Below are positions 1-13,275 of a DNA stretch of 13,275 nt, one piece after another. The stretch is from a virus. The DNA is taken from the UHGV virus genome UHGV-0356291. One strand, 5' to 3'. The position numbers and the translations under genes were made by a program. The notes beneath the pieces were generated by a model that ran no database searches, had not been told where the DNA came from, and saw nothing but the letters and a program-made list of their open reading frames with translations. How positions within the stretch are numbered: position 1 is the first letter of the stretch; every line of letters begins with the position of its first letter.

Positions 1-1
1 A

Positions 2-160
2 GAGCGATTGAACAAACAGTTCGCACAACTTGAAAGCGAGCGTCAGTCGTTCGAGCCGCACTGGCGCGAGTTGAGTGATTACATCAACCCGCGTGGTTCC
101 CGCTTTCTGACTTCTGAGGTTAACCGTAACGATCGACGCCACAACTTAACAGGGCCATAA
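2..160 (+). CDS. portal protein, N-terminal fragment (5'-partial; start codon upstream of window); terminated by TAA 158-160 in the present orientation
   Basis: Frame 2 is open from position 2 and reads ERLNKQFAQLESERQSFEPHWRELSDYINPRGSRFLTSEVNRNDRR, resembling from memory the N-terminal region of T7 gp8 (YERLKNDRAPYETRAQ...). Same frame as the 215-1633 ORF. Confidence 0.6.
   Translation, partial: ERLNKQFAQLESERQSFEPHWRELSDYINPRGSRFLTSEVNRNDRRHNLTGP
94..139. repeat. left arm of 46-bp perfect inverted repeat (partner 289-334)
   Basis: Exact reverse complement of 289-334, checked base by base; mismatch at 93/335 and 140/288 defines the ends. Confidence 0.95.
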
Positions 161-214
161 TCCATCATTTCAGGATCTGGCGTAGCCAGGCGAAACCACG
201 GACGCGCGGGGCTT

Positions 215-1633
215 GTGATGCCTGACATCATGCCGCTGGCGAGAGTGCGCGCCGCCATAGTCCCGGTCGAATCAATAATGCGTGTATTGCGTCGATCGTT
301 ACGGTTAACCTCAGAAGTCAGAAAGCGGGAACCAGGAAGCCTCGGCACATACAGCACTGGTGCAATGGCAGTGCTGGAGGATGACGAGGACATCATTCGC
401 ACAATGCCATTCCCGATAGGCAGTTACTACCTGGCTAACTCACCTCGTGGCAGTGTGGACACCTGTTTTCGCAAGTTCTCTATGACTGTTCGTCAGCTTG
501 TTCAGGAGTTCGGGCTAAATAACGTCAGCGAATCCGTAAAAAGCATGTGGGAAAGCGGAACCTACGAGAAGTGGATTGAAGTGATGCATTCGGTTTACCC
601 GAACATTGACCGCGATACATCGAAGCTGGATAGCAAGAACAAGCCATTCAAATCGGTTTATTACGAGGTTGGTGGCGATAACGACAAGTTGTTGCGTGAG
701 TCCGGATTCGATGAGTTTCCAATTATGGCTCCGCGCTGGGAAGTTAACGGCGAAGATGTTTATGGATCATCATGCCCGGGTATGCTGGCGCTTGGACCTG
801 TTAAGGCATTGCAGCTTCTCCAGAAGCGCAAGTCGCAGTTGATTGATAAAGCCACCAATCCGCCGATGGTTGCTCCGACTTCCCTCAAGAATCAGCGTGC
901 CTCCCTTCTTCCTGGCGACATCACGTATATCGATCAGATTACTGGTCAGGATGGTTTCAGGCCTGCTTATCTGGTTAACCCCAGTACAGCAGATTTGGTG
1001 GCAGACATTCAGGACACCCGTCAAATCATTAACAGCGCCTACTTTGTCGATCTGTTCATGATGTTGCAGAACATCAATACCCGCTCGATGCCTGTTGAAG
1101 CGGTGATCGAAATGAAAGAAGAAAAACTTCTGATGTTGGGGCCGGTTCTGGAGCGTCTGAACGACGAATGTCTTAATCCTCTCATTGACCGCGCTTTCTC
1201 GATGATGGTGCGTAAAAACATGCTGCCGCCACCGCCTGACGCGATGGAAGGTATGCCCCTGAAGGTCGAATACATTTCCGTCATGGCTCAGGCGCAGAAG
1301 TCTATCGGCCTGTCCAGTCTGGCGTCTACGGTCAACTTCATTGGTCAACTTGCGCAAGCGAAACCAGAAGCTCTCGACAAACTCAACGTTGATCAGGCGA
1401 TCGATGCATTCGCTGATATGTCCGGAGTGTCTCCAACCGTCATTGTTCCGCAGGAACAGGTTGAGCAGGCTCGCCAGCAACGGGCACAGCAACAACAGCA
1501 GCAACAAATGATGGCGATGGGGATGGCGGCGGCACAGGGTGCCAAGACGCTAAGCGAAGCTAAAACTTCGGATCCGAGTGTTTTGTCAGCTATGGCGAAT
1601 GCAGTTAGTGGTCAGGGTGGGCAATCACAATGA
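215..1633 (+). CDS. portal (head-to-tail connector) protein, T7 gp8-like; 5' region disrupted, so ATG 215 is probably not the native start
   Basis: 472-aa ORF. C-terminus QQRAQQQQQQQMMAMGMAAAQGAKT matches the Q-rich ...QQSMQMGMDNGAAALAQGMAAQ tail I recall from T7 gp8. No Shine-Dalgarno before ATG 215; first ~25 codons are antisense of the flipped segment. Confidence 0.8.
   Translation: MMPDIMPLARVRAAIVPVESIMRVLRRSLRLTSEVRKREPGSLGTYSTGAMAVLEDDEDIIRTMPFPIGSYYLANSPRGSVDTCFRKFSMTVRQLVQEFGLNNVSESVKSMWESGTYEKWIEVMHSVYPNIDRDTSKLDSKNKPFKSVYYEVGGDNDKLLRESGFDEFPIMAPRWEVNGEDVYGSSCPGMLALGPVKALQLLQKRKSQLIDKATNPPMVAPTSLKNQRASLLPGDITYIDQITGQDGFRPAYLVNPSTADLVADIQDTRQIINSAYFVDLFMMLQNINTRSMPVEAVIEMKEEKLLMLGPVLERLNDECLNPLIDRAFSMMVRKNMLPPPPDAMEGMPLKVEYISVMAQAQKSIGLSSLASTVNFIGQLAQAKPEALDKLNVDQAIDAFADMSGVSPTVIVPQEQVEQARQQRAQQQQQQQMMAMGMAAAQGAKTLSEAKTSDPSVLSAMANAVSGQGGQSQ
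289..334. repeat. right arm of 46-bp perfect inverted repeat (partner 94-139)
   Basis: Exact reverse complement of 94-139. Confidence 0.95.
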
Positions 1634-1926
1634 CAGATTACGAAGACGATCAACTGAAAGAAGAAAACGCCCGTAAGCAACGTGACATGGCACAGCGTGA
1701 AATTGATGACATTTGCTTTGTCATGAGCAGTGAACAGGGGCGTCGCGTTGTCTGGTCGGTGCTGGAGAAAGGCCGTGTGTTTTCCGCTATCTCACCGATG
1801 GACGCTATGGCTATGGCATTTAATGAGGGGCAACGCAATCTGGCGCTGGAACTGTTTCAGCGCGTTATGGCGCATTGCCCTGAACAGTATTTGAAGATGG
1901 CCAAAGAGGCCAGTGAACAGGAGTGA
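1630..1926 (+). CDS. hypothetical protein (98 aa), between portal and scaffold
   Basis: ATG 1630 overlaps portal stop (ATGA); stop TGA 1924-1926 overlaps next gene; acidic/charged protein; no function recognised. Confidence 0.55.
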   Translation: MTDYEDDQLKEENARKQRDMAQREIDDICFVMSSEQGRRVVWSVLEKGRVFSAISPMDAMAMAFNEGQRNLALELFQRVMAHCPEQYLKMAKEASEQE

Positions 1927-1928
1927 TC

Positions 1929-2624
1929 ATGAATTTATTTGAGCGTTTGCTGTATCGCCGTCTTTGCAATGAGCAACCAGTCGATGGTGGAGCAGCTCCG
2001 GCTGCGTCAGAACCGTCAGCGCCTGCAGGTGATAACCCTGCTCCAGTTGGTGATCCATCACAACCGGAAGGTGATAAGCCACAACCTGTTGCTGATGGCG
2101 ATAAACCTGCTGATGACAAAAAGCCTGAAAACGATAAGCAGGATGAAAAAAAGGACGGCGATAAAACAGAGGGTGCGCCTGAGAAGTACGAGTTTCAGGC
2201 TGCCGAAGGCGTAGAGCTGGATACAGAAGCGTTGAAGGAATTCGAGCCGGTGGCGCGAGAACTAAACCTGACCAACGAGCAAGCGCAAAAGCTGGTTGAT
2301 GCTTATCCGAAGATTCTGGCAGGTGTTCAGCAGCGCCAGGCAGAAGCCTGGCAGAAAACAACCGAGCAGTGGGCTGCTGATGTAAAAGCTGACAAAGAAA
2401 TCGGTGGCGACAAGTTGATTTCTAACCTTAGCGCCGCACAGCGTGCGCTTGACCAGTTCGGGACACCTGAACTCAAAGAATATCTGAACACCACCGGGCT
2501 GGGTAATCACCCTGATCTGGTCAAAACGTTCGTGAAAATCGGAAAGGCGATGTCTGAAGATGGCATGGTCACCGGTGGTAATGAAGGCCAGCGTAGTGCG
2601 GCCGAAGTGCTCTATGGCAAATAA
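1929..2624 (+). CDS. putative scaffolding (capsid assembly) protein
   Basis: AGGAG at 1919-1923, 5 nt before ATG 1929 (six-frame track starts at in-frame GTG 1923). Highly acidic, Pro/Asp/Lys-rich N-terminal half, helical-looking C-terminal half, sits directly upstream of the capsid gene as T7 gp9 does. Confidence 0.6.
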   Translation: MNLFERLLYRRLCNEQPVDGGAAPAASEPSAPAGDNPAPVGDPSQPEGDKPQPVADGDKPADDKKPENDKQDEKKDGDKTEGAPEKYEFQAAEGVELDTEALKEFEPVARELNLTNEQAQKLVDAYPKILAGVQQRQAEAWQKTTEQWAADVKADKEIGGDKLISNLSAAQRALDQFGTPELKEYLNTTGLGNHPDLVKTFVKIGKAMSEDGMVTGGNEGQRSAAEVLYGK

Positions 2625-2638
2625 GAGAGGAAATGACA

Positions 2639-3625
2639 ATGGCTGTTAAAGGCTTAACTGCGCTAACGCTGGCTGACTGGGGTAAGCGCGTCGATCCAAA
2701 CGGGAAAGTCGATAAGATTATCGAGCTTCTCGGTCAAACTAACCCGATCCTTCAGGATATGCCTTTTGTCGAAGGGAACCTTCCTACCGGACACCGAACC
2801 ACCATTCGTTCTGGTTTACCTTCAGCTACCTGGCGTTTGCTGAACTATGGCGTACAGCCAAGCAAATCAACCACAGTACAGGTAACCGATTCCGTTGGCA
2901 TGCTGGAAACCTATGCGGAAGTCGATAAGTCACTGGCTGATCTGAACGGCAATACCGCCGAATTCCGCCTGTCTGAAGACCGCGCATTTATTGAAGCGAT
3001 GAATCAGCAGATGGCGCAGACGCTGTTTTATGGTGATTCCAGCGTTAACCCTCAGCAGTTTATGGGACTGTCCTCCCGCTATTCCAGCCTGTCTGCGGGT
3101 AATGCTCAGAACATCATTGATGCTGGTGGCACGGGTACAGATAACACCTCAATCTGGTTAGTGGTGTGGGGCGAAAACACCGTGCATGGCATCTTCCCGA
3201 AAGGGCAGAAGGCTGGCATCCAGATGGAAGATAAAGGCCAGGTGACACTGGAAGATGCTAATGGCGGCAAGTACGAAGGCTATCGCACCCATTACAAATG
3301 GGATAACGGACTTGCTCTGCGTGACTGGCGTTATGTTGTTCGCATTGCAAACATCGATGTCAGCAATCTTTCAGAACCTTCCTCTGCCGCAAATATTGCG
3401 AAGTTGATGGTTAAAGCACTGCATCGCATTCCAAATCGTGGCATGGGTCGCCCGGTGTTCTACATGAACCGCACTGTAGGCCAGGCTCTTGATCTGCAAT
3501 CTCTGGAGAAAACATCTCTGGCGATCAGCGTAAAAGAGACAGAAGGCGAGTGGTGGACTTCATTCCGTGGTGTACCAATCCGTGAAACTGATGCGCTTCT
3601 GGAAACAGAAGCCCGCGTGGTGTAA
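2639..3625 (+). CDS. putative major capsid protein (~328 aa)
   Basis: GAGG at 2627-2630, 8 nt before ATG 2639 (ATG 2633 is too close to the SD). Position after scaffold and size close to T7 gp10A (~345 aa from memory); called by synteny, no specific motif recognised. Confidence 0.6.
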   Translation: MAVKGLTALTLADWGKRVDPNGKVDKIIELLGQTNPILQDMPFVEGNLPTGHRTTIRSGLPSATWRLLNYGVQPSKSTTVQVTDSVGMLETYAEVDKSLADLNGNTAEFRLSEDRAFIEAMNQQMAQTLFYGDSSVNPQQFMGLSSRYSSLSAGNAQNIIDAGGTGTDNTSIWLVVWGENTVHGIFPKGQKAGIQMEDKGQVTLEDANGGKYEGYRTHYKWDNGLALRDWRYVVRIANIDVSNLSEPSSAANIAKLMVKALHRIPNRGMGRPVFYMNRTVGQALDLQSLEKTSLAISVKETEGEWWTSFRGVPIRETDALLETEARVV

Positions 3626-3641
3626 CGCCTGTTATTAACCT

Positions 3642-3661
3642 GTGGGTCGTAACAGACCCAC
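3642..3661 (+). promoter_or_regulatory. RNA stem-loop just downstream of capsid stop (GTGGGTC-gtaaca-GACCCAC)
   Basis: 7-bp GC-rich perfect stem with 6-nt loop, 17 nt after TAA 3623-3625; no U-tract follows, so not a classic intrinsic terminator. Confidence 0.5.
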
Positions 3662-3676
3662 TAATGGAGAAAGAAG

Positions 3677-4114
3677 ATGATCACCGACAAACTGTTGATG
3701 TTCTCCGAAGCACAGGCGGTAACTGATACCGCGGCTTCTACTGACGTAATCGATCTCGGTCCAATTGACGGAAAACGTCGTGATATCGGCGTGGGTTACC
3801 CGCTTGAGTTTTGGGCGCTGGTTAACACAGCCGCCGCAGCAAGCGGTGATGCAACTGTAAACATCCAGTTGCAGACGAGTGAGGATAACAGCTCATGGTC
3901 CACTATTTATGATAGTGGCGCACTGGCAAAGGCCACCCTGACAGCAGGTAAGCGAGTTGTTTCTGCAAAGGTGCCAGCCGGTGTTCAGCGATATCTGCGT
4001 GTTAACTACTCCGTCGCAACTGGCCCACTAACGGCTGGCAAATTCACTGCGGGTATCAATCTTGATGTTGATGCCAATACGCCGTATCCGATCCGCTCAA
4101 AAGTAACTGGTTAA
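3677..4114 (+). CDS. hypothetical virion-associated protein (145 aa)
   Basis: GGAG 3666-3669, 7 nt before ATG 3677; Ala/Thr/Gly-rich beta-like composition; no homolog named. Confidence 0.6.
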   Translation: MITDKLLMFSEAQAVTDTAASTDVIDLGPIDGKRRDIGVGYPLEFWALVNTAAAASGDATVNIQLQTSEDNSSWSTIYDSGALAKATLTAGKRVVSAKVPAGVQRYLRVNYSVATGPLTAGKFTAGINLDVDANTPYPIRSKVTG

Positions 4115-4124
4115 GGTGATATTG

Positions 4125-4460
4125 ATGTCAGGTGAGAAACCAAGATACCGCGTTCTGCGCCTCTCTCATATCCATAACACTCTGTGGCCGGAGGGGGCAG
4201 AAATCGAATACGAAGGTGAGCCTGGTAGCGCACTGGAACCTGTTAACGATGCAGCCAGACAGGCAAAAGCAAAAGTTGCAGGAAAAGAGTCAATGGCAGC
4301 AACCAGCACCAAAATCATCAACGATGTGTCAGATGATGGTGAACTGGATAAGCTCCGTGAAGAGTACGAATTGCTCTTTAACGAGAAGCCACACCATAAC
4401 GCCAAAGCCGAAACGCTCCGCGAGAAGATCGCAGATAAGCGTAAAGAACTGGGCGTGTAA
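4125..4460 (+). CDS. hypothetical protein (~112 aa)
   Basis: AAGGTG 4113-4118, 6 nt before ATG 4125 (track starts at GTG 4116); charged C-terminal half; followed immediately by an intrinsic terminator. Confidence 0.6.
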   Translation: MSGEKPRYRVLRLSHIHNTLWPEGAEIEYEGEPGSALEPVNDAARQAKAKVAGKESMAATSTKIINDVSDDGELDKLREEYELLFNEKPHHNAKAETLREKIADKRKELGV

Positions 4461-4478
4461 GCCTCGCGGATCAGACAA

Positions 4479-4498
4479 GGGGCTTCGGCCCCTTTATT
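4479..4498 (+). terminator. rho-independent terminator (GGGGC-ttcg-GCCCC then TTTATT)
   Basis: GC stem with UUCG tetraloop and U-rich tail, 19 nt after stop 4458-4460; stem can extend to AAGGGGC/GCCCCTT from 4477. Confidence 0.6.
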
Positions 4499-4510
4499 GC
4501 AGGAGTGTAT

Positions 4511-4834
4511 ATGGAACTCGTAAACCTCAAAACCGGCACTGACAGCTACCAGGATGAGAGCGGAGAAACCAGAACTCGCGATGAATACCCGTGGGGGCTG
4601 TGCATCACTCTTAATAACGACACATTGAATAAGCTGAAGGCGCAACCTCAGGGCGTCGGAACAGAAGTGATGATAACTGCAAAGGCTGTTATTCGAGGCC
4701 TGTCTGCCAGAGAAACTGACGATGGTGTTAATCGCAGCGCCGATCTGCAGATCACTGATATGGCGATCGCTCCTGTTTCCGGGGATGTAGAAAAATCAGC
4801 GGCTGAAACCCTGTACGGCAATGGGGGTGAGTAA
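4511..4834 (+). CDS. hypothetical protein (~107 aa) with scaffold-like C-terminal tail
   Basis: AGGAG 4500-4504, 6 nt before ATG 4511 (track starts at GTG 4505); C-terminus ...VEKSAAETLYGNGGE parallels scaffold C-terminus ...GQRSAAEVLYGK; stop TAA overlaps next ATG (TAATG). Confidence 0.6.
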   Translation: MELVNLKTGTDSYQDESGETRTRDEYPWGLCITLNNDTLNKLKAQPQGVGTEVMITAKAVIRGLSARETDDGVNRSADLQITDMAIAPVSGDVEKSAAETLYGNGGE

Positions 4835-5439
4835 TGGCCTCTGTAGTAGAGATCTGCAATCGTGCGCTGTCCAATATTGGCAATAGCCGCAGCATTAACA
4901 GCCTGACGGAAGCCAGCAAGGAAGCGGGGGAATGTTCGCTGCACTTTGAGGCCTGCCGTGATGCTGTGCTTTCTGATTTTGACTGGAACTTTGCTACCAA
5001 ACGCGTGGCGCTGGCAGATACGAGCAATCCACCGCCTGACTGGGAATATGCGTATCAGTACCCGTCCGATTGTCTGCGCATTACTGAAATTATGCTTCCT
5101 GGTGTACGCAATCCAACAGCAGCAATGCGCGTTCAGTACGAAGTAGGTGTAGACACCAACGGAACAGGAAAGTTGATCTACACAGACCAGCCTCAGGCAT
5201 GGCTCAAGTATGTCTCTCGCGTTACAGATGTGAACATGTTTGATGCCATTTTTATGGAGGCGTTGGCCTGGCGTCTTGCGGCAGCTATTAACATGGCGCT
5301 GACTGGGAATGCAGACCTCGGTACGTTTGCCCTCAATATGTACAATCGCGTGATTCTTAGTGCTGGCTCGCATAGCCAGAATGAATCACAGGAACCACAG
5401 CCACCGGTTGACGAGTTTACCATTGCGAGGTTGTCCTGA
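4834..5439 (+). CDS. putative tail tubular protein A (T7 gp11-like)
   Basis: 201 aa versus ~196 aa for T7 gp11 (from memory); N-terminal ICNRALSNIGNSRSINSLTEA resembles T7 gp11 AVNDILASIGEPPVSTLEG; followed by a ~800-aa gene as in T7. Confidence 0.55.
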   Translation: MASVVEICNRALSNIGNSRSINSLTEASKEAGECSLHFEACRDAVLSDFDWNFATKRVALADTSNPPPDWEYAYQYPSDCLRITEIMLPGVRNPTAAMRVQYEVGVDTNGTGKLIYTDQPQAWLKYVSRVTDVNMFDAIFMEALAWRLAAAINMALTGNADLGTFALNMYNRVILSAGSHSQNESQEPQPPVDEFTIARLS

Positions 5440-7910
5440 TGGCTATCAGTTGGATACAGCCCAGCTTTGCCGGTGGTGAGATTGGACCGTCGTTGTACGG
5501 TCGTATCGACATGGCGAAGTACCAGGTGGCATTGCGCAAGTGCGATAACTTTATCGTGCGGCAGTATGGCGGCGTTGAGAATCGACCTGGTACGCGTTTT
5601 GTCGGTGCCGCCAAATACCCAAATCGGAAATGCCGCCTGATCCCGTTCCAGTTCTCGACGGTTCAGACCTATGCTCTGGAGTTCGGACACCAGTACATGC
5701 GCGTTATCAAAGATGGTGCGTTGGTGCTGAACAGCAGCAATGTTATTTATGAAATTTCCACGCCATATACTGAAGCCGATCTGTTCCGAATTAAATTCAC
5801 GCAAAGCGCAGACGTGCTTACGCTGGTTCATCCGGCATACCCGCCGAAAGAGTTGCGCCGCTATGCGCATGACAACTGGCAACTGGTTGATGTGGTAACG
5901 AAGAACGGGCCATTTGAAGATATCAATATTGACGAGTCAGTGACGGTTTATGCCAGCGCCAGCACCGGGACAATTACGTTAACGGCAAGCGCCTCTATTT
6001 TTGGCGCGGAGCAGGTAGGCAAATTGTTCTATCTGGAACAGCCTGCAGTGGATTCTGTGCCGGTATGGGAAACCAGTAAGAGTACGTCGATTGGCGATAT
6101 TCGCCGTGCAGACAGTAACTACTATCGCGCCGTTACAGCAGGCAAAACAGGTACTTTGCGCCCTTCGCATACAGAAGGCACATCATGGGATGGCTGGGGC
6201 GGATCCGGTGATGATGATACTGGCATTGAGTGGGAGTATCTGCACAGTGGTTTTGGCATTGCCCGTATCACTGCTGCAAATGGCACTACTGCAACTGCTG
6301 AGGTGATTTCCTATATCCCTTCGCAGGTCGTTGGCGAGGATAATGCCAGCTATAAATGGGCTAAATATGCCTGGAACAGTGTTAATGGTTATCCTGGCAC
6401 TGTTGTTTATTATCAACAACGTCTTTACTTCGCCGCATCGACTGCGTTTCCTCAGACTATCTGGGCCAGCCGTACCGGGGATTATAAGGATTTTGGCAAA
6501 AGCAATCCTACGCAGGATGACGACAGAATTATCTACACCTATGCCGGACGTCAGGTTAATGAGATCCGCCACCTGATTGATGTTGGTTCTCTGGTGGCGC
6601 TGACTTCCGGAGGTGAGTACGTCATCACCGGCGACCAGAACAAAGTGTTAACCCCATCATCATTTGCATTCAGCTCTCAGGGATCAAATGGCTCAAGCAA
6701 CGTCCCGCCAATTGCCGTGGCGAATATTGCTCTGTTCGTCCAGGAGAAAGGCAGCGTTGTCCGTGATCTGGCCTACTCATTCGATGTTGACGGCTATCAG
6801 GGGAACGACCTGACCATCCTTGCCAATCATCTTTTTCAGAAGCACAGCATTGTTGACTGGTGCTTCTCGATTGTCCCTTACTCCAGTGCCTTCTGCATTC
6901 GTGATGACGGTAAATTACTGGTGATGACCTATTTGCGTGATCAGCAGGTTTTTGCATGGGCACCACAATCCAGTACCGGAAAATATGAAAGCACATGCAG
7001 TATCAGCGAAGGCAATGAAGATGCGGTGTATTTCGTCGTTAACCGAACCGTTAACGGGCAAACAGTGAGATACATCGAGCGACTGTCCAGCCGTTTATTT
7101 ACCAGCGATGAAGATGCTTTCTTTGTTGATTCTGGCCTTAGCTATGATGGAAGAAATACGTCTGACAGAACGATGACCATCACTGGTGGTTCTGGTGAAT
7201 GGGATTACCATGCGGAATATACAATCAGTGTTTCTGGTGGTGCGTACTTCACCAGTAGTGATGTCGGCGCGCAACTACAGTTCCCTTATACCGGAACTGA
7301 TCCTGATACTGGCGATGAAGTGTCAAAAGAATTACGTTGCGACATTATTTCTGTAACCAGCAATACCGCTGTAGTGGTTCGTGCTAACAGGAACGTCCCG
7401 CCATCCCTCAGGAATGTGGCCACCACGAACTGGCAGATGGCGCGCCGGACATTTGGCGGCTTGTCTCATCTTGAAGGCCAGACCGTAAACATCCTCTCTG
7501 ATGCGAACGTGGAACCACAGAAAGTGGTTTCCGGAGGTGCCGTCACGCTGGAATCTCCGGGGGCTGTAGTGCACATCGGCCTGCCAATAACTGCTGAATT
7601 CGAAACACTGGATATCAACATTAACGGACAGGAAACGCTGCTGGACAAAAAACAGGTGATCCCGTCCGTTACTCTGGTTGTGAATGCCAGTCGCGGCATC
7701 TGGGCGACTACGCCCGGCGGTAAATGGTACGAATATCCACAGCGTGAATTCGAGTTCTACGATGATCCTGTTGATGATGCTACCGGAAAAGTAGAAGTGA
7801 AACTGGACAGTAACTGGGGCAAAAACGGACGTGTAAAAATCCGTCAGCTTGATCCGTTGCCGCTGTCTGTTCTTGCCGTTATTCCTCGCCTTACTGTTGG
7901 GGGATTCTGA
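5439..7910 (+). CDS. putative tail tubular protein B / nozzle (T7 gp12-like)
   Basis: 823 aa versus ~794 aa for T7 gp12 (from memory); start overlaps upstream stop (TGATG); N-terminus MAISWIQPSFAGGEIGP loosely resembles T7 gp12 MALISQSIKNLKGGISQQP; assignment mostly by size and order. Confidence 0.5.
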   Translation: MAISWIQPSFAGGEIGPSLYGRIDMAKYQVALRKCDNFIVRQYGGVENRPGTRFVGAAKYPNRKCRLIPFQFSTVQTYALEFGHQYMRVIKDGALVLNSSNVIYEISTPYTEADLFRIKFTQSADVLTLVHPAYPPKELRRYAHDNWQLVDVVTKNGPFEDINIDESVTVYASASTGTITLTASASIFGAEQVGKLFYLEQPAVDSVPVWETSKSTSIGDIRRADSNYYRAVTAGKTGTLRPSHTEGTSWDGWGGSGDDDTGIEWEYLHSGFGIARITAANGTTATAEVISYIPSQVVGEDNASYKWAKYAWNSVNGYPGTVVYYQQRLYFAASTAFPQTIWASRTGDYKDFGKSNPTQDDDRIIYTYAGRQVNEIRHLIDVGSLVALTSGGEYVITGDQNKVLTPSSFAFSSQGSNGSSNVPPIAVANIALFVQEKGSVVRDLAYSFDVDGYQGNDLTILANHLFQKHSIVDWCFSIVPYSSAFCIRDDGKLLVMTYLRDQQVFAWAPQSSTGKYESTCSISEGNEDAVYFVVNRTVNGQTVRYIERLSSRLFTSDEDAFFVDSGLSYDGRNTSDRTMTITGGSGEWDYHAEYTISVSGGAYFTSSDVGAQLQFPYTGTDPDTGDEVSKELRCDIISVTSNTAVVVRANRNVPPSLRNVATTNWQMARRTFGGLSHLEGQTVNILSDANVEPQKVVSGGAVTLESPGAVVHIGLPITAEFETLDININGQETLLDKKQVIPSVTLVVNASRGIWATTPGGKWYEYPQREFEFYDDPVDDATGKVEVKLDSNWGKNGRVKIRQLDPLPLSVLAVIPRLTVGGF

Positions 7911-8374
7911 TGATCGATGTTCAAATTATTCCCGCAACCGAAGAGCATCTTCAGATGATTTTGCCGGATGTTCGTCAGGCTGATATTGACGAACTGTATG
8001 CGGTATCACTGATGACTACCGAAGATGCGCTGCGTGTTGGTCTGCGTACTGCGACTATGGCCTGGTCAGGATTTGCGAACGGAGAACTGGTAACCATGTT
8101 TGGCGTATCTCCGGCGTCAATGATCGGTGGCAATGGTACGCCCTGGCTGGTCGGAACCAGCCGCATCGAAAAATATCAGAAGACATTTCTTCGCCACTGC
8201 CGCCCTGTATTGCAGCAGATGCTGGCAGTTTATCCGCGCCTGGAAAACTATGTCGACGAGCGAAACCATGTTGCCAAAGCATGGCTGCACTGGCTTGGAT
8301 TCAGGCTTGAAGAAGCCGCGCCTTATGGTGCTCTTGGTCTTAATTTCCACAGATTTCACATGGAGAGAAAATAA
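7910..8374 (+). CDS. hypothetical protein (154 aa), T7 gp13-like position
   Basis: Start overlaps upstream stop (TGATG); size near T7 gp13; no motif recognised. Confidence 0.6.
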   Translation: MIDVQIIPATEEHLQMILPDVRQADIDELYAVSLMTTEDALRVGLRTATMAWSGFANGELVTMFGVSPASMIGGNGTPWLVGTSRIEKYQKTFLRHCRPVLQQMLAVYPRLENYVDERNHVAKAWLHWLGFRLEEAAPYGALGLNFHRFHMERK

Positions 8375-8391
8375 TGTGTAACCCAGCCATC

Positions 8392-8494
8392 GCTTTGGTT
8401 GCCGTCACAGTGGCATACGCTGATCCGCTTCAATATTCCCACGATTGATTGAATCCTGTGCCTGAGCTTCAGCAATTTCAGCATTCCGATCAGC
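8392..8494. repeat. rotated inverted copy of 8551-8651 (two blocks: 8392-8416 and 8417-8494)
   Basis: 8392-8416 is the reverse complement of 8551-8575 and 8417-8494 is the reverse complement of 8574-8651, both exact. Confidence 0.95.
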
Positions 8495-8495
8495 T

Positions 8496-9041
8496 ATGGC
8501 TGACTGGTATTTTGCCTGCTTGCTCTGGCTGTACATTGACGCGGCTGTGGATGCCACTGTGACGGCAACCAAAGCTGATCGGAATGCTGAAATTGCTGAA
8601 GCTCAGGCACAGGATTCAATCAATCGTGGGAATATTGAAGCGGATCAGCGTCGTCGTGAAATGCGTCAACGCTCAGGCACTGCGGCGGCCACTATGGGGG
8701 CTACCGGTGCGGAATTAAGTAGCGGAACAGCTCTTGACGTTTTTGCGGATAATGCTCAGTTCGGCACTCTTGATGCGTTAACGACAGTGAATAATGCTCA
8801 GCGTGAGGCATATGGGTATCAGGTTCAGGGAATGAATGCTCAGGCACAGGGGGCTGCTGCTCAGTCGGCTGCTAAATCATCGATGACCAGCACTTTGTTA
8901 ACGGCACCACTAAAAGCATACGGTGCATATAAGTTGGGTAGCGGAAGTATCAATCCGATTAGTAAGCAAGGAAACACGCCAATGTTATCTAACTCAGGTT
9001 TTATGAATTCTGACTCCCGATTCAAAATAGGAGGTTACTGA
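8496..9041 (+). CDS. putative internal virion protein (181 aa), T7 gp14-like position
   Basis: ORF with hydrophobic N-terminus (WYFACLLWLYIDAAV) and Ala/Gln-rich middle; no SD before ATG 8496 and in-frame TGA at 8463-8465; stop overlaps next ATG. Confidence 0.55.
   Translation: MADWYFACLLWLYIDAAVDATVTATKADRNAEIAEAQAQDSINRGNIEADQRRREMRQRSGTAAATMGATGAELSSGTALDVFADNAQFGTLDALTTVNNAQREAYGYQVQGMNAQAQGAAAQSAAKSSMTSTLLTAPLKAYGAYKLGSGSINPISKQGNTPMLSNSGFMNSDSRFKIGGY
8551..8651. repeat. in-gene partner of the upstream inverted copy 8392-8494
   Basis: Encodes in frame DATVTATKADRNAEIAEAQAQDSINRGNIEADQR of the 181-aa ORF, so this copy is the coding original. Confidence 0.95.
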
Positions 9042-11788
9042 TGCCTGTTGTTCCTACTACATCCGGACGCCAGGTGCAAAGTCGTGGTGTGCAAACCGGT
9101 GGTTTTCAGACCTTCGATGTTCCTCAAGCAGGTCAGGTGCTGGCGAATGTCGCAGATCAGTATGCGGTGGCATATGGTGAAGCCAGGCAGAAAGCGAATG
9201 TTGCTATGGCCCAGGAGGCGTTACTGCAATTTAACCAATTTGCAGATGACCAGATTAACAACCCTGAAAATGGGCTGATTTCTAAACAGGGTAAAAACGC
9301 TCTTGGTCAGAGTGACGCTGTTATGAAAAATATGCAGGAAAGGGCTCAGGCATTATTAGGCTCAATTCCTGAAAGTGAGGAAAGGAATAAATTATCCTTT
9401 CAACTCCAGCAGTCTATGCAGTCTTATTACAATCAGGCACGTCGATATGAAGTTGGGCAGTTTCAGCAATTCCAAGATCAAACGTATTTGTCAGGAAATG
9501 CATTGGCTGTCACTCAGTCTGCGGGGCTATATAGCGATAACCAAGCATTTGTCGATTTAGCCAAGCAGCGATTTGAATCTATTGATCAATACGCTGATGC
9601 GCATGGGCTTCCTGATGAGTGGCGTGTTCAGCAGAAAACTCAGCTCAAGGAACAAATGGGGCAGCAAGCATGGATAGGAAATATCGCTCAAAAATACAAC
9701 GAGTTTCTTCAGGTTAATGGAGAGCCAGGGGATCTTGATGGTGTGAGTCGTGCAATATCACATGGTAATTCATTGGATGCTCGTGGTTTACGTAATAATA
9801 ACCCCGGTAATATTGAAGCGAGCAAATCTAACCCGTGGGAAGGTCAGATCGGTAGCGATGGACGTTTTGCAACGTTTGCTACCCCTGAGCATGGAATCCG
9901 CGCGTTGGGTAAAAATATGTTGTCTTACCAGCGTCAAGGCTATGACACCGTTAGCGAGATTGTTAATCGCTATGCTCCGGCTAGTGATGGTAATAATACT
10001 GATGCTTATATTAGGGCATTGTGTGGTGAGCTTGGTGTTGGGGAGAATGATCAGCTTGATATCTCTAACCCAAAGACACTAGCTGCTTTATGTGCTGGGA
10101 TTATTAAACACGAAAATGGCAGTATGCCTTATAGCACCGAACAGCTTGAAACTGGTATCTCGGCAGCCCTTGGTCTAACTAACCTTGATTCACCTAAGCG
10201 TTATACGGGCAATGCGGCATTTGATGCTATGAGCCCTCAAATGCAAATACAGGCATTGAGGCAGGCTAATGAGCTGAGAAATCAGTACCGCCAGCAGTAT
10301 GCGGACCAGCTTAGCACCGTAGTTAAAGATGCATATTCAGCCCTTGATGAAGGATTGAAACCTGAGAAGTTACCTTCTGAGGACGATTTTATCCGGGCCA
10401 ATGGTCCGCGCATTGGCGCTATGAAGTGGAAGGATATGCAGGCGCAGATACAATATGGAGGTGTCATTGGTGCCGCTAAAGACCTCACTCCAGAAGGACG
10501 GCAAGACATTCTTGAACGTTTACGTCCACAGGATCCAAACGCTCCTGGATTTGCAGCTAACCAGCAACGCTGGGAGAAAATGCAGGCCAAATTTAAAGAG
10601 ATGGATAGGGAGTGGGAGATTCAGCAGGGAAGAAACAGGTTCGTGTCTTCAATGCAAAATAACTTCCCGCTGGACCCGAACGACAAAAACAATCAGGCAG
10701 CGGTAGACCGTTATTTCGCGCAGGATATCGCGCCTTCGTTTTCCATATCTGATCCGCAGAGCATCAATACACTGGTCACCGTCACAACTAAAAGCGGCAT
10801 GATACCAACTCAGATTAAAACAATGCTTAACAGTGGAGCGACATCAAGAGATCCTGCGCTGGTTGTCCCGATGGCAAAATTCTACGGTCAGTTATTCGAT
10901 AATAATCCGGCGGCAGCGGCAACACTTGATAAAAGTACGATGGCATTTTACGGCAAGGTTTACGATTATTCCCGCGCTGGCGTGCCGGAGGATAAGGCTG
11001 TTGATATGGCTTACAGCCAGGTGTTCCAACAGGATGACCGAATGAAACAGATGCTTTCCACTGCCATGCGAGACAAAAAATATGTCGCGGCGAGGGCAAC
11101 TGCTGCACAAAATAACGCCAGCAGTCTGACTTCCTTTGGTTCGTGGTCTCCGGATATTACCGATCCAGGAAAATCAAATGCGGCCTATCAGCGAGATTAC
11201 CAGACAATTTACGATGCTAACTTTGTACAGACAGGTGGCGATGCAGAACAGGCTGAGAAAATGACCAATGCCATGATCAGAACCACTTGGGGAGTTTCTA
11301 CGGTTAATGGCAAAGCAGAGGTTATGAAGTATGCACCTGAGGCATTGTACGGAGTAAATAATGGTGCTGGTAACTGGATACAGGGGCAGTGGGAGCAGGA
11401 AAAACGCGAGCTTAAATCAAAATCCTTTGGCGGTCCTCGCAGTGATACGGACTTAATACTTGTTTCTGATGGCCTTACGGCAAGGGATAGGAGTTATGCT
11501 GTTATGGTTTTACAGCCTGACGCAAACGGAGCGATAGAACCGAGAAATTATATTGGAGAAAATGGTCTCCCTGTTCGTTTCAAGCCGGATCAGCTGACAT
11601 CTCCAATGTACAGGCAAACCATTCAGTTCCAGCAACAGCGTGTTGATGAGGCTAGAGTGCGGAGAGAAGGCAATCCGCTGCCGCAGTTCAGCAATAAAGA
11701 TGGATATACTCCTCCAGATCTGACAAAACCATTCGGTTATGGTTCAGCCAATTACCTTCCGAGCAATATATACGCAGGGGGCAAATAA
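9041..11788 (+). CDS. putative internal virion / ejection protein (915 aa) with a conserved-looking RNNNPGNI...RYAP block
   Basis: Long ORF coupled to flanking genes (TGATG / TAATG); Gln-rich; position equals T7 gp15/gp16; lower GC than upstream genes. Confidence 0.7.
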   Translation: MPVVPTTSGRQVQSRGVQTGGFQTFDVPQAGQVLANVADQYAVAYGEARQKANVAMAQEALLQFNQFADDQINNPENGLISKQGKNALGQSDAVMKNMQERAQALLGSIPESEERNKLSFQLQQSMQSYYNQARRYEVGQFQQFQDQTYLSGNALAVTQSAGLYSDNQAFVDLAKQRFESIDQYADAHGLPDEWRVQQKTQLKEQMGQQAWIGNIAQKYNEFLQVNGEPGDLDGVSRAISHGNSLDARGLRNNNPGNIEASKSNPWEGQIGSDGRFATFATPEHGIRALGKNMLSYQRQGYDTVSEIVNRYAPASDGNNTDAYIRALCGELGVGENDQLDISNPKTLAALCAGIIKHENGSMPYSTEQLETGISAALGLTNLDSPKRYTGNAAFDAMSPQMQIQALRQANELRNQYRQQYADQLSTVVKDAYSALDEGLKPEKLPSEDDFIRANGPRIGAMKWKDMQAQIQYGGVIGAAKDLTPEGRQDILERLRPQDPNAPGFAANQQRWEKMQAKFKEMDREWEIQQGRNRFVSSMQNNFPLDPNDKNNQAAVDRYFAQDIAPSFSISDPQSINTLVTVTTKSGMIPTQIKTMLNSGATSRDPALVVPMAKFYGQLFDNNPAAAATLDKSTMAFYGKVYDYSRAGVPEDKAVDMAYSQVFQQDDRMKQMLSTAMRDKKYVAARATAAQNNASSLTSFGSWSPDITDPGKSNAAYQRDYQTIYDANFVQTGGDAEQAEKMTNAMIRTTWGVSTVNGKAEVMKYAPEALYGVNNGAGNWIQGQWEQEKRELKSKSFGGPRSDTDLILVSDGLTARDRSYAVMVLQPDANGAIEPRNYIGENGLPVRFKPDQLTSPMYRQTIQFQQQRVDEARVRREGNPLPQFSNKDGYTPPDLTKPFGYGSANYLPSNIYAGGK

Positions 11789-12957
11789 TGCCGATATATG
11801 AACAGGATCCTAAAGAGTTGCTTGGCGAGGGTATTCAGCAAATAGCAGCACCTGATGACAGTAATTTCTATATGGAAACACCTTCTTTGCTTTCTGCTGT
11901 GAACCCATTTACCAGTGATCAACGCGTTCAAAGGTCTAGACAAGCAGCATTTCGTATAGATAACACGCTGGGTAGCTTTATTGCCAGTGCTCCTTTCAGT
12001 CAGTTTGACAGGGTTGAAGGATATAACCCATTTGATAACGATGCAGCAGATATTAAAGGCTATGAAGATTTTGCAGATTCGTTTATCAACTCCGGTTCGC
12101 ATGAAGAAACAATGGCAATTAAACATCGAATCGATCAGCAGAGAGCTGACATGGAATACAATTCAGGCTTGGGATTTGCTGGTACAGTCTCTTCTGTAGC
12201 AATGAGATTAGCAGATCCATTCAATGCGATTTCTATGTTTATTCCGTTCGGCGCTGTCGTTCGTGGCGGTCGTATTGCAGAAACAGCCGGACGTTTTGCT
12301 TTAGCCAATGCTGCTGGCAGTGTTGCTTCAGAGGCCGCATTGCAGGCCACTCAGGAAGCTCGCTCACCGATGGAGAGCGTATCGAACGTTGTTGTTGATG
12401 CTCTCGTTGGTGGGATCCTTGGTGCTGGTGCACAGCTACTTGCTGGACCTAGCGCGCGCGAGGCAGTGGTTAACTCAGTAGGTAATCATTTGCGAGGTAT
12501 GGATTCTCCTCAAAGCATTGGTGCAGCTCAGGTTTTCAATACCACACTCGATCAGGAACAGCTTGCTGGACTTGGACTTGCTAACAAAACGTTGAGTGTC
12601 ACTCCTGCTGGCCGCTTGGCGCAATCACCATCTCTTGTTTCCCGTCAGATTAACCAGCAGCTTGCCGAAAATAACTATTTCTTCGCCAAAAATGATGAGG
12701 GGTTGGCTACGTTTACGGCAGTCGAGACTAAGATTAAGCAATACGACGCCATGCTTTATAAGCAGATGGAAGCTACTCGTGATGCTTACCAGCAGTACAG
12801 CAAATCTGTCAGCGCCCGCGGCGTGAAGAGGATGAACTTTATTGATTTCAATGAAGCTGTTGGCATGGCTATGCGCCGTGGTGATCAGAGTGATATTCCT
12901 GAGGTTTCACAAGCTTTTCAATTCGCTGACCTGCTTTGTCAGCACCTTTGGCACTAA
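11788..12957 (+). CDS. putative internal virion protein, apparently truncated at 389 aa by an inverted-duplication insert
   Basis: ATG overlaps upstream stop; ORF ends at TAA 12955-12957 inside the inverted copy; frame resumes at 13062 after the direct repeat. Confidence 0.65.
   Translation: MPIYEQDPKELLGEGIQQIAAPDDSNFYMETPSLLSAVNPFTSDQRVQRSRQAAFRIDNTLGSFIASAPFSQFDRVEGYNPFDNDAADIKGYEDFADSFINSGSHEETMAIKHRIDQQRADMEYNSGLGFAGTVSSVAMRLADPFNAISMFIPFGAVVRGGRIAETAGRFALANAAGSVASEAALQATQEARSPMESVSNVVVDALVGGILGAGAQLLAGPSAREAVVNSVGNHLRGMDSPQSIGAAQVFNTTLDQEQLAGLGLANKTLSVTPAGRLAQSPSLVSRQINQQLAENNYFFAKNDEGLATFTAVETKIKQYDAMLYKQMEATRDAYQQYSKSVSARGVKRMNFIDFNEAVGMAMRRGDQSDIPEVSQAFQFADLLCQHLWH
12899..12914. repeat. 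direct repeat CTGAGGTTTCACAAGC, copy 1
   Basis: Identical to 13060-13075; both copies sit at the boundaries of the inverted copy. Confidence 0.9.
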
Positions 12958-13060
12958 TCCCTTGTATCCAGTTGGCAATTCGCCCTCTGAATTCAGTGCG
13001 GTCGGAAAGTATCTTATCGAACTTATAAATGCGGGGAAGATAACTCTTCGCCGTCACGAC
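12940..13060. repeat. inverted copy (121 bp visible) of 13155-13275
   Basis: Exact reverse complement of 13155-13275; may extend left to 12915 if the partner continues beyond the window end. Confidence 0.95.
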
Positions 13061-13075
13061 TGAGGTTTCACAAGC
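13060..13075. repeat. direct repeat CTGAGGTTTCACAAGC, copy 2
   Basis: Identical to 12899-12914. Confidence 0.9.
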
Positions 13076-13275
13076 AGCCGCCAGAATCCGCCCCATTTTT
13101 GAGACCACAAAAGCCCGTATGCAGGAATTGGGGATCCTTCCTGAGGATATCGATGTCGTGACGGCGAAGAGTTATCTTCCCCGCATTTATAAGTTCGATA
13201 AGATACTTTCCGACCGCACTGAATTCAGAGGGCGAATTGCCAACTGGATACAAGGGATTAGTGCCAAAGGTGCTG
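13062..13275 (+). CDS. continuation of the 11788 gene (3'-partial, runs off window)
   Basis: Frame 3 open from 13062 to window end: EVSQAAARIRPIFETTKARMQELGILPEDIDVVTAKSYLPRIYKFDKILSDRTEFRGRIANWIQGISAKGA; begins with the same EVSQA as the upstream direct-repeat copy. Confidence 0.5.
13155..13275. repeat. downstream partner of inverted copy 12940-13060 (coding orientation)
   Basis: Exact reverse complement of 12940-13060; lies in the open frame continuing the last gene. Confidence 0.95.

What the first reader, a model, noticed from the sequence alone, without database searches (positions are those of the whole stretch)
94..13275. Three independent perfect inverted-duplication structures in 13 kb, all copying adjacent coding sequence
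The structures at 94-334, 8392-8651 and 12899-13275 share a signature: 100 percent identity between arms, source sequence within a few hundred bp, and location in or next to otherwise intact, tightly coupled genes. Perfect identity means no divergence since formation. It is established that whole-genome amplification with strand-displacing polymerase produces mostly inverted chimeras joined at microhomology with small deletions, and that replication template switching at quasi-palindromes produces similar products in vivo. Either way the rest of the operon shows no decay, so these are not old pseudogenisation events.
Basis: partly seen in the sequence, partly recalled or inferred. Interest (0 to 1): 0.6.

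Follow-up and report, generated by a model that had tools for sequence, protein, structure and literature searches.

The report
Private strand-flip rearrangements in a prophage
Three short stretches of this E. coli prophage sequence were copied backwards from the opposite strand, breaking three essential virion genes; no other sequenced copy of the phage shows this, so it is most likely damage from how this sequence was produced, not biology.

Summary
The window holds perfect inverted repeats at 94-334, 8392-8651 and 12899-13275. The window is the virion-gene module of a phiV10/epsilon15-like prophage common in E. coli ST131. It can be rebuilt base for base (13275/13275) from an intact reference by six joins. 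Each site is one "switch-and-return": forward strand, 147-197 nt copied from the opposite strand 80-271 nt away, then forward again. The events truncate the portal, a T7-gp14-family core protein and a 1129-aa internal protein. None of the 524, 509 and 120 complete E. coli genomes carrying the three regions has them. Nor do IMG/VR, JGI metagenomes, 30 related phage records or a 15-billion-protein collection. Observed overlaps are 2, 0, 0, 3, 1 and 1 nt, which is chance level, and no quasi-palindrome sits at a switch point. Site 3 has a geometry never seen among in-vivo template-switch events. The best reading is a technical corruption of the record (amplification, assembly or computation). The exact cause cannot be resolved without reads. 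A real mutational burst in one prophage copy is a minority rival. Interest is low.

The parts
1..139 (+). Forward segment 1. Portal gene residues about 7-52 (the window starts 17 nt into the gene). Equals reference L001 3001-3139.
   Evidence: Pfam PF12236 on the intact portal
138..334 (-). Site 1 inverted copy, 197 nt. It is the exact reverse complement of reference 3094-3290 and replaces reference 3140-3364 (net -30 nt). Four-point type 3-1-2-4. Junction overlaps 2 nt (138-139) and 0 nt (334|335).
94..139 (.). Site 1 left inverted-repeat arm (46 nt, perfect). It pairs with 289-334.
289..334 (.). Site 1 right inverted-repeat arm (46 nt, perfect).
335..1633 (+). Remainder of the portal gene, from native residue 128 to the stop. 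Residues 53-127 are lost and the upstream reading frame stops at 158-160.
8374..8448 (+). Truncated start of the T7-gp14-family core protein gene: 14 native residues, then 10 foreign residues and a stop inside the inverted copy.
8417..8575 (-). Site 2 inverted copy, 159 nt. It is the exact reverse complement of reference 11422-11580 and replaces reference 11447-11504 (net +101 nt). Four-point type 3-1-4-2. Junction overlaps 0 nt (8416|8417) and 3 nt (8573-8575). The second junction also has an imperfect 8/10 match.
8392..8416 (.). Site 2 outer inverted-repeat arm (25 nt, perfect). It pairs with 8551-8575.
8576..8651 (.). Site 2 inner inverted-repeat arm (76 nt, perfect). It pairs with 8417-8492.
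8496..9041 (+). Chimeric 181-aa ORF: 26 residues read from the inverted copy, fused in frame to native gp14-family residues 34-188. The native N-terminal 33 residues are lost.
11788..12957 (+). Truncated gene for the 1129-aa DUF919-annotated internal virion protein: native residues 1-376, then 13 foreign residues and a stop.
12914..13060 (-). Site 3 inverted copy, 147 nt. It is the exact reverse complement of reference 15923-16069, inserted with a 16-nt direct duplication of the target (net +161 nt). Four-point type 4-1-3-2. Junction overlaps 1 nt and 1 nt.
12940..13060 (.). Site 3 left inverted-repeat arm (121 nt visible, perfect). It pairs with 13155-13275, and that partner arm is cut by the window end.
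13060..13275 (+). Forward segment resuming at reference 15828. It is in a different reading frame from 11788, so the downstream gene is frameshifted as well as truncated. It contains the right arm 13155-13275 and the second copy of the 16-nt direct repeat (13060-13075).

Best explanation
The three structures are not features of the phage. They are private corruptions of an otherwise perfect copy of a common E. coli ST131 prophage (phiV10/epsilon15-like podovirus virion module).

Each site is one coupled switch-and-return event. The copying process follows the + strand to point 1 and jumps 134-226 nt ahead onto the complementary strand (point 2). It copies 147-197 nt backwards to point 3, then returns to the + strand at point 4, which lies within -15 to +226 nt of where it left. 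This automatically creates perfect inverted repeats (46; 25+76; 147 nt) and net length changes of -30, +101 and +161 nt. It also destroys the portal, gp14-family and 1129-aa internal-protein genes.

I judge the agent to be technical: chimeric molecules from strand-displacing amplification carried into a low-coverage or single-read consensus, or an assembly or computational error. I do not think it was replication in a cell.

Shown: the geometry, the exact derivation from the intact sequence, the coupling of the junctions, the gene damage, and the absence from all independent copies. Inferred: that the cause is technical, and which technical step it was.
For: (1) The window is reconstructed exactly (13275/13275) from reference L001 by six joins, with no other difference.

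(2) The rearranged form was found nowhere else. No hit among the 524, 509 and 120 complete E. coli genomes that carry sites 1, 2 and 3. None in 30 related phage records. Junction 40-mers are absent from IMG/VR, GTDB representative genomes and JGI metagenomes, while the intact 40-mer is present in 17 IMG/VR contigs. All 26 fetched loci are intact wherever they cover a breakpoint. Ten chimeric ORFs are absent from about 15 billion proteins, whereas the intact neighbouring gene is in 3569 collection blocks, flanked by full-length 188-aa and 1129-aa gene calls in the places shown, apart from one split of the 1129-aa gene at a different position.

(3) Three essential virion genes are killed while 13 kb shows no point substitution. 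A plaque-forming relative, EC.W1-9, has full-length genes at these positions.

(4) The inverted orientation, the 80-271 nt jump distances and roughly one junction per 2 kb match published strand-displacement chimera statistics, including heavy chimerism in long reads of amplified phage DNA.

(5) Site 3 is of type 4-1-3-2. The class in which point 4 precedes point 1 was not observed among in-vivo events, because it requires reopening the newly made duplex. Displaced strands or software do not face that constraint.

(6) The copied fragments are 147-197 nt. In-vivo short-range template switches involve a few tens of bp.
Against: The source record, its DNA preparation and its reads were not found, so no direct evidence of amplification or misassembly exists.

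Five of six junctions lack the microhomology expected of phi29 chimeras: 2 of 6 have 2 nt or more, against 93.5% published, P=2.4e-4.

The forward-reverse-forward coupling (P=3.9e-4 for independent junctions) is the textbook signature of in-vivo switch-and-return. Published single-junction MDA chimeras do not explain it directly.

One junction (J2b) has an imperfect 8/10 match, suggesting real annealing by a polymerase, which could have happened in vitro or in vivo.

If the source is a standard unamplified high-coverage isolate assembly, consensus errors of this kind would be unexpected and the events would have to be real.
Confidence: 0.7

Rival explanations
1. These are genuine in-vivo rearrangements in one defective prophage copy. 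A single error-prone replication or repair episode (short-range template switching, or microhomology-mediated break-induced replication) made three switch-and-return excursions within 13 kb of the prophage in one isolate, very recently, and inactivated it.
For: The forward / reverse-complement / forward geometry with coupled junctions is exactly the four-point switch-and-return model. Sites 1 and 2 are types seen in vivo: 3-1-2-4, and the rare 3-1-4-2. J2b has 8/10 imperfect homology. A prophage can tolerate loss of virion genes. Break-induced replication is known, from my own knowledge, to make clustered template switches.
Against: Five of six junctions have chance-level homology, and the reference has no quasi-palindrome at the switch points. 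Site 3 belongs to the type class not observed in vivo. The fragments are 147-197 nt rather than tens of bp. Three rare complex events sit beside zero point mutations in 13 kb. The form is absent from every other copy examined, including hundreds of clonal ST131 genomes.
Confidence: 0.2
2. The cause is purely computational: an assembler, scaffolder, gap-filler or polisher error, or deliberate or simulated editing of an intact sequence, with no chimeric DNA molecule ever existing. This is a sub-case of the best explanation and is listed separately because it predicts random junctions.
For: Junction overlaps are statistically indistinguishable from random joins (mean 1.17 against 0.67 expected; P=0.14-0.24). 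The three events are three different four-point types, including one that is disfavoured for replication in a cell. Inverted pieces of 147-197 nt are about the length of a read. The rearranged sequence and its ORFs are absent from all public collections searched.
Against: de Bruijn mis-joins need k-1 bases of overlap, which are absent here. J2b's 8/10 imperfect match (about P=4e-4 for one junction, about 0.01 after allowing for multiple looks) hints at physical annealing. I know of no described software failure that gives this exact pattern.
Confidence: 0.25
3. These are functional, evolved elements: invertible DNA switches or regulatory hairpins within the virion operon.
For: Only that long perfect inverted repeats exist.
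Against: They are not simple inversions, since each has duplication plus deletion or insertion. They truncate or frameshift three conserved essential genes. Neither orientation variant nor the repeats exist in any relative, close or distant. The arms are copies of coding sequence with no independent conservation.
Confidence: 0.01

Closest known systems
Inverted chimeras of multiple displacement amplification (phi29; Lasken & Stockwell 2007, PMC1855051; review PMC9984789)
   Same: The joined segments are in opposite orientation. They come from the same molecule, 80-271 nt apart (published distance peaks near 80 and 250-300 nt). There is an intervening deletion or duplication. The events are unique to one sample. 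The density of about one junction per 2 kb resembles long-read data from amplified DNA.
   Different: Published junctions nearly always show at least 2 nt of complementarity, mostly 5-8 nt. Here 4 of 6 have 0-1 nt. Published chimeras are described as single junctions. Here junctions come in tight pairs that return to the original strand after only 147-197 nt.
Short-range template-switch mutations, four-point model (Loytynoja & Goldman 2017, PMC5453318; Ripley quasi-palindrome model)
   Same: It is an exact switch-and-return geometry defined by four points. It creates perfect inverted repeats with an inverted spacer (site 1: 3-1-2-4) or two inverted repeats (site 2: 3-1-4-2).
   Different: The copied fragments are 147-197 nt rather than tens of bp. 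There is no pre-existing near-palindrome. Site 3 is 4-1-3-2, a class not observed in real genomes. Three events occur in 13 kb with no other mutation.
Palindromic or fold-back reads in long-read sequencing of amplified DNA (Pacasus, PMC6218980; PMC13265396)
   Same: These are artificial inverted duplications that enter reads and compromise assemblies of amplified DNA, including phage DNA.
   Different: Those are usually whole-read fold-backs with one axis of symmetry. They are not short internal inverted inserts flanked by kilobases of forward sequence.
Site-specific invertible segments of phages (Gin/Cin/Hin-type; from my own knowledge)
   Same: They involve inverted repeats flanking an inverted piece of a phage structural region.
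   Different: Invertible segments are conservative, with no gain or loss of bases. They are found in both orientations among relatives, preserve reading frames and sit next to an invertase gene. The first three of these do not hold here. The fourth was checked only against reference annotation and a partial Pfam scan, and no recombinase was seen.

Membership tests
MDA (phi29) inverted chimera | Adjacent segments map to opposite strands of the true genome | tested here: met
   All six junctions join + to - or - to +
MDA (phi29) inverted chimera | Joined segments are proximal (<10 kb; preferred distances about 80 and 250-300 nt) | tested here: met
   Distances are 151, 271, 134, 80, 226 and 95 nt, compared
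MDA (phi29) inverted chimera | The 3' end primed at complementary bases: at least 2 nt in 93.5% of proximal inverted junctions, typically 5-8 nt | tested here: not met
   Overlaps are 2, 0, 0, 3, 1 and 1 nt, so 2 of 6 reach 2 nt. P=2.4e-4 under the published rate, and consistent with chance at P=0.24. One junction has an imperfect 8/10 match.
MDA (phi29) inverted chimera | Each event is unique to one amplified sample and absent from independent sequences | tested here: met
   Absent from all collections searched
MDA (phi29) inverted chimera | The source DNA was amplified with a strand-displacing polymerase | not testable with these tools
   The source record was not identified
In-vivo short-range template-switch mutation (four-point model) | One switch-and-return: forward, then the reverse complement of nearby sequence, then forward | tested here: met
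   Exact at all three sites. The junction pairs are coupled, P=3.9e-4.
In-vivo short-range template-switch mutation (four-point model) | The switch-point order does not place point 4 before point 1 | tested here: not met
   Sites 1 (3-1-2-4) and 2 (3-1-4-2) comply. Site 3 is 4-1-3-2, against the rule quoted.
In-vivo short-range template-switch mutation (four-point model) | The copied fragment is short (tens of bp) | tested here: not met
   Fragments are 197, 159 and 147 nt,
Classical quasi-palindrome correction (Ripley) | A pre-existing near-perfect inverted repeat at the switch points | tested here: not met
   No inverted repeat in the intact reference aligns with any p1/p2 or p3/p4 pair
Site-specific invertible DNA segment | Conservative inversion between inverted repeats, with both orientations seen among relatives | tested here: not met
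   Each site has a net gain or loss of sequence. Only the intact orientation exists in relatives.
Tandem inversion duplication (forward-inverted-forward triplication; from my own knowledge) | A region present in three copies with the middle one inverted | tested here: not met
   No reference interval is present three times at any site. At sites 1 and 2 the two forward copies do not overlap. At site 3 they overlap by 16 nt that the inverted copy does not contain.

The most novel reading that the evidence does not exclude
The three events are real and arose together in one cell. In this reading a chromoanasynthesis-like burst of switch-and-return template switching occurred during error-prone, break-induced or abortive phage replication. 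It was confined to the prophage, used almost no microhomology, and killed three virion genes at once. That would be a route to instant prophage domestication not documented in bacteria.
Probability: 0.1. Interest if true: 0.55.

Novelty: not a real feature. Interest (0 to 1): 0.12.

Why it matters
If the structures are technical, as I judge, the value is practical. This record misrepresents a common ST131 prophage as carrying three broken virion genes. Any annotation, pseudogene count or hairpin or inverted-repeat discovery drawn from it would be wrong. The signature is a forward / reverse-complement / forward excursion of 150-200 nt taken from within 300 nt, with perfect arms and an otherwise perfect match to relatives. 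That signature is easy to screen for, and the rest of the source dataset should be checked for it.

If the events were real, they would show that bacterial replication can make clustered, long template switches almost free of microhomology. That would matter for how prophages decay. The evidence here does not favour that reading.

Tried and rejected
(1) Chance or low-complexity repeats: rejected. The arms are 25-121 nt, perfect, and made of complex coding sequence.

(2) BLAST first suggested 2 mismatches and 1 gap near site 2. Exact extension showed these came from the alignment running across junction J2b. All seven pieces are 100% identical to the reference.

(3) Finding the source record failed. 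I tried exact protein look-ups of the 389-, 181-, 472- and 471-aa chimeric ORFs. I tried ten ORF variants against 15 billion proteins. I scanned junction 40-mers against IMG/VR, GTDB genomes and JGI metagenomes. I also searched a junction-spanning peptide. That last search gave only 3 hits, each covering at most 43% of the query, which is the native part. It collected only 6 candidates, so its sensitivity is doubtful and I treat it as a weak negative.

(4) I looked for a place with abnormal neighbours through the intact 915-aa gene. The 27 contigs read collapsed to 7 distinct places, all with a full-length 188-aa gp14-family neighbour. The 1129-aa gene was full length in all but L025, where it is split at a different position.

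(5) Conserved functional hairpins or invertible switches: rejected on comparative and coding grounds.

(6) A de Bruijn-graph mis-join at inverted k-mers: rejected, because the junctions share 0-3 nt, not k-1.

(7) Tandem inversion duplication: rejected, because no interval is triplicated.

(8) A common motif or restriction site at the twelve breakpoints: none seen by eye in the junction contexts. The sample is too small for statistics.

(9) The window end coinciding with the end of an arm first suggested a contig end. It is explained by truncation of a 147-nt arm, so it says nothing about whether the window is a whole contig.
Full report
**Observation**

The window contains five inverted-repeat pairs.
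- Site 1: 94-139 / 289-334, 46 nt, perfect.
- Site 2: 8392-8416 / 8551-8575 (25 nt, perfect), nested with 8417-8492 / 8576-8651 (76 nt, perfect). The tool reports this second pair as 86 nt at 98% because it extends 10 nt further with 2 mismatches.
- Site 3: 12940-13060 / 13155-13275, 121 nt, perfect.

String comparison confirms each. Site 3 also carries a 16-nt direct duplication (12899-12914 = 13060-13075). Its right arm is cut by the end of the window. The coordinates and the 100% identity are correct, and repeats of this length are far beyond chance.

**What the region is**

The window is the virion module of a phiV10/epsilon15-like podovirus.
- It matches Escherichia phages EC.W1-9, TL-2011b, phiV10 and relatives at about 98%.
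- It is 100% identical to a prophage carried by many E. coli ST131-type genomes.
- In the reference (NZ_CP030111.1, locus L001) the genes are portal, a 98-aa protein, protease, major capsid protein, Bbp16 cement protein, capsid staple, several tail or internal proteins, a T7-gp14-family core protein, a 915-aa protein and a 1129-aa DUF919-annotated protein.
- Pfam confirms portal (PF12236), capsid (PF20911), Bbp16 and T7_gp14.

**Anatomy relative to the intact sequence**

BLAST of the window against L001 gives seven collinear pieces that alternate in strand. Exact extension fixes the breakpoints. A script that concatenates +3001-3139, rc(3094-3290), +3365-11446, rc(11422-11580), +11502-15843, rc(15923-16069) and +15828-16043, allowing for junction overlaps, reproduces the window exactly, 13275 of 13275 bases.

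The window is therefore an intact prophage sequence plus three events and nothing else. There is no substitution and no indel.

Each event is a switch-and-return. The sequence leaves the + strand at point 1 and resumes on the complementary strand 134-226 nt further on (point 2). It runs backwards for 197, 159 or 147 nt to point 3, then returns to the + strand at point 4. Net changes are -30, +101 and +161 nt, which sum to the 232-nt excess of the window over the reference. The perfect inverted repeats are an automatic by-product of this geometry.

If six junctions were placed independently along 13 kb, three reversed segments all of 197 nt or less would have P = 3.9e-4. Each pair of junctions is therefore one coupled event.

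**Consequences for genes**
- **Portal:** the reading frame stops after native residue 52 plus 7 foreign residues. Residues 53-127 are lost.
- **gp14-family protein:** it keeps 14 residues and then stops. A chimeric in-frame ORF (8496-9041, 181 aa) replaces the native 33 N-terminal residues with 26 foreign ones.
- **1129-aa protein:** truncated at residue 376, and the downstream part is out of frame.

A phage with this sequence could not build virions. The plaque-forming relative EC.W1-9 has full-length genes at these positions.

**Is it found anywhere else?**

No rearranged copy was found in any collection.
- Site-specific queries against 5426 complete E. coli genomes found the region in 524, 509 and 120 genomes. 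No place covered more than the 52%, 59% and 69% expected from the intact arrangement.
- No phage record covers the window collinearly.
- Junction 40-mers are absent from IMG/VR, GTDB representative genomes and JGI metagenomes. The intact 40-mer at the same place is in 17 IMG/VR contigs.
- Among 26 fetched loci, intact 80-mers at all twelve reference breakpoints are present wherever the region is covered (19, 10 and 9 loci). Rearranged 80-mers are present in none.
- The intact 915-aa gene that lies between sites 2 and 3 occurs in 3569 blocks of the assembly collection. The 27 contigs read collapsed to 7 places, all with a full-length 188-aa neighbour. The 1129-aa gene was full length in all but one place, where it is split at a different position.
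- Ten possible chimeric ORFs are absent from about 15 billion proteins.
- A peptide spanning junk plus native portal has no full-length match. I treat this as a weak negative because the search collected few candidates.

The structures are derived, private to this sequence and undiverged.

Both models depend on annealing of a 3' end.
- For phi29 amplification, Lasken & Stockwell report that 85% of chimeras are inverted and mostly proximal. At least 2 nt of complementarity is present at 93.5% of inverted junctions under 10 kb apart (PMC1855051).
- A review gives overlap lengths mostly 5-8 nt and preferred distances near 80 and 250-300 nt (PMC9984789).

Here the distances (151, 271, 134, 80, 226 and 95 nt) fit well. 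The overlaps are 2, 0, 0, 3, 1 and 1 nt. Simulated random inverted joins on the same sequence give a mean of 0.67 nt and P(at least 2 nt) = 0.157. Observing 2 of 6 has P = 0.24 under chance, but P = 2.4e-4 under the published MDA rate.

Only J2b shows more, an imperfect 8/10 match. The intact reference has no quasi-palindrome aligned with any pair of switch points. That removes the classical Ripley mechanism. T7-replisome chimeras likewise form at pre-existing short inverted repeats (PMC9484634).

In the four-point model of in-vivo template switching (PMC5453318), sites 1 and 2 are the observed types 3-1-2-4 and 3-1-4-2. Site 3 is 4-1-3-2. Types in which point 4 precedes point 1 were never observed in real genomes, because the return would require reopening the newly made duplex. 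In-vivo events also involve tens of bp, not 147-197 nt.

**Weighing**

Against biology:
- Three rare complex events sit beside zero point mutations.
- Three essential genes are hit.
- One geometry is not seen in vivo.
- The fragments are long.
- There is no microhomology and no quasi-palindrome.
- The form is absent from hundreds of clonal relatives.

Against a textbook MDA artefact:
- Microhomology is lacking.
- The junctions are tightly paired.

Random-looking junctions and three different four-point types are what a computational error or edit would give. The 8/10 match at J2b hints at a physical polymerase event.

I cannot separate amplification chimeras carried into a thin consensus from a purely computational origin without the reads. 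Long reads of amplified phage DNA are reported to be heavily chimeric. Either way the structures are not part of the phage's biology.

My confidences:
- About 0.7 that the structures are technical. This includes the computational sub-case, listed separately at 0.25.
- About 0.2 that they are real in-vivo rearrangements in one defective prophage copy.
- About 0.01 that they are evolved functional elements.

**Verdict**

Novelty: not a real feature. Interest is low. The most novel reading not excluded is a one-step burst of nearly homology-free template switching that domesticated a prophage. I give that about 10%.

Noticed in passing
window 8378-9211 (and GC profile 9001-13000): There is a mosaic boundary. 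phiV10-type phages match the window at about 98% only up to 8378, and TL-2011b up to 9204. Window 9211-12902 matches Klebsiella phages at only about 80%. G+C drops from about 0.51 to about 0.46 at about 9000. Site 2 lies just right of this natural module junction, which is probably coincidence.
   Followed up: no
window 8496-9041: The site 2 rearrangement happens to leave an in-frame 181-aa ORF in which 26 antisense-derived residues replace the native hydrophobic N-terminal 33 residues of the gp14-family protein. In-frame fusion has a 1 in 3 chance and there is no evidence of function.
   Followed up: partly
window 8566-8575 versus reference L001 11495-11504: Junction J2b is the only one with extended imperfect homology (8 of 10 nt, including the 3-nt exact overlap). 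This is why BLAST reported 2 mismatches there. It hints that at least this join involved annealing.
   Followed up: partly
L025 6748-10136 and L024 500-2971: In two other public assemblies of the same prophage, the 1129-aa gene is called as 670 + 450 aa (GCA_045573225.1) and the 823-aa gene is not called (GCA_050200155.1). These are independent disruptions at other positions. They could be frameshift errors of long-read assemblies or real decay.
   Followed up: no
L001 2259-2335 (upstream of the window): The reference prophage carries a tRNA-Arg gene between the terminase region and the portal gene.
   Followed up: no
window 5439-7910, 9041-11788 and L001 14717-18106: The three largest virion proteins have little or no Pfam support. 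The 823-aa and 915-aa proteins have no match. The 1129-aa protein's 'DUF919' label rests on a 46-residue, 23-bit match to a baculovirus family, just above the cutoff. Their roles as tail or ejection proteins rest on position and on annotation in related phages only.
   Followed up: no
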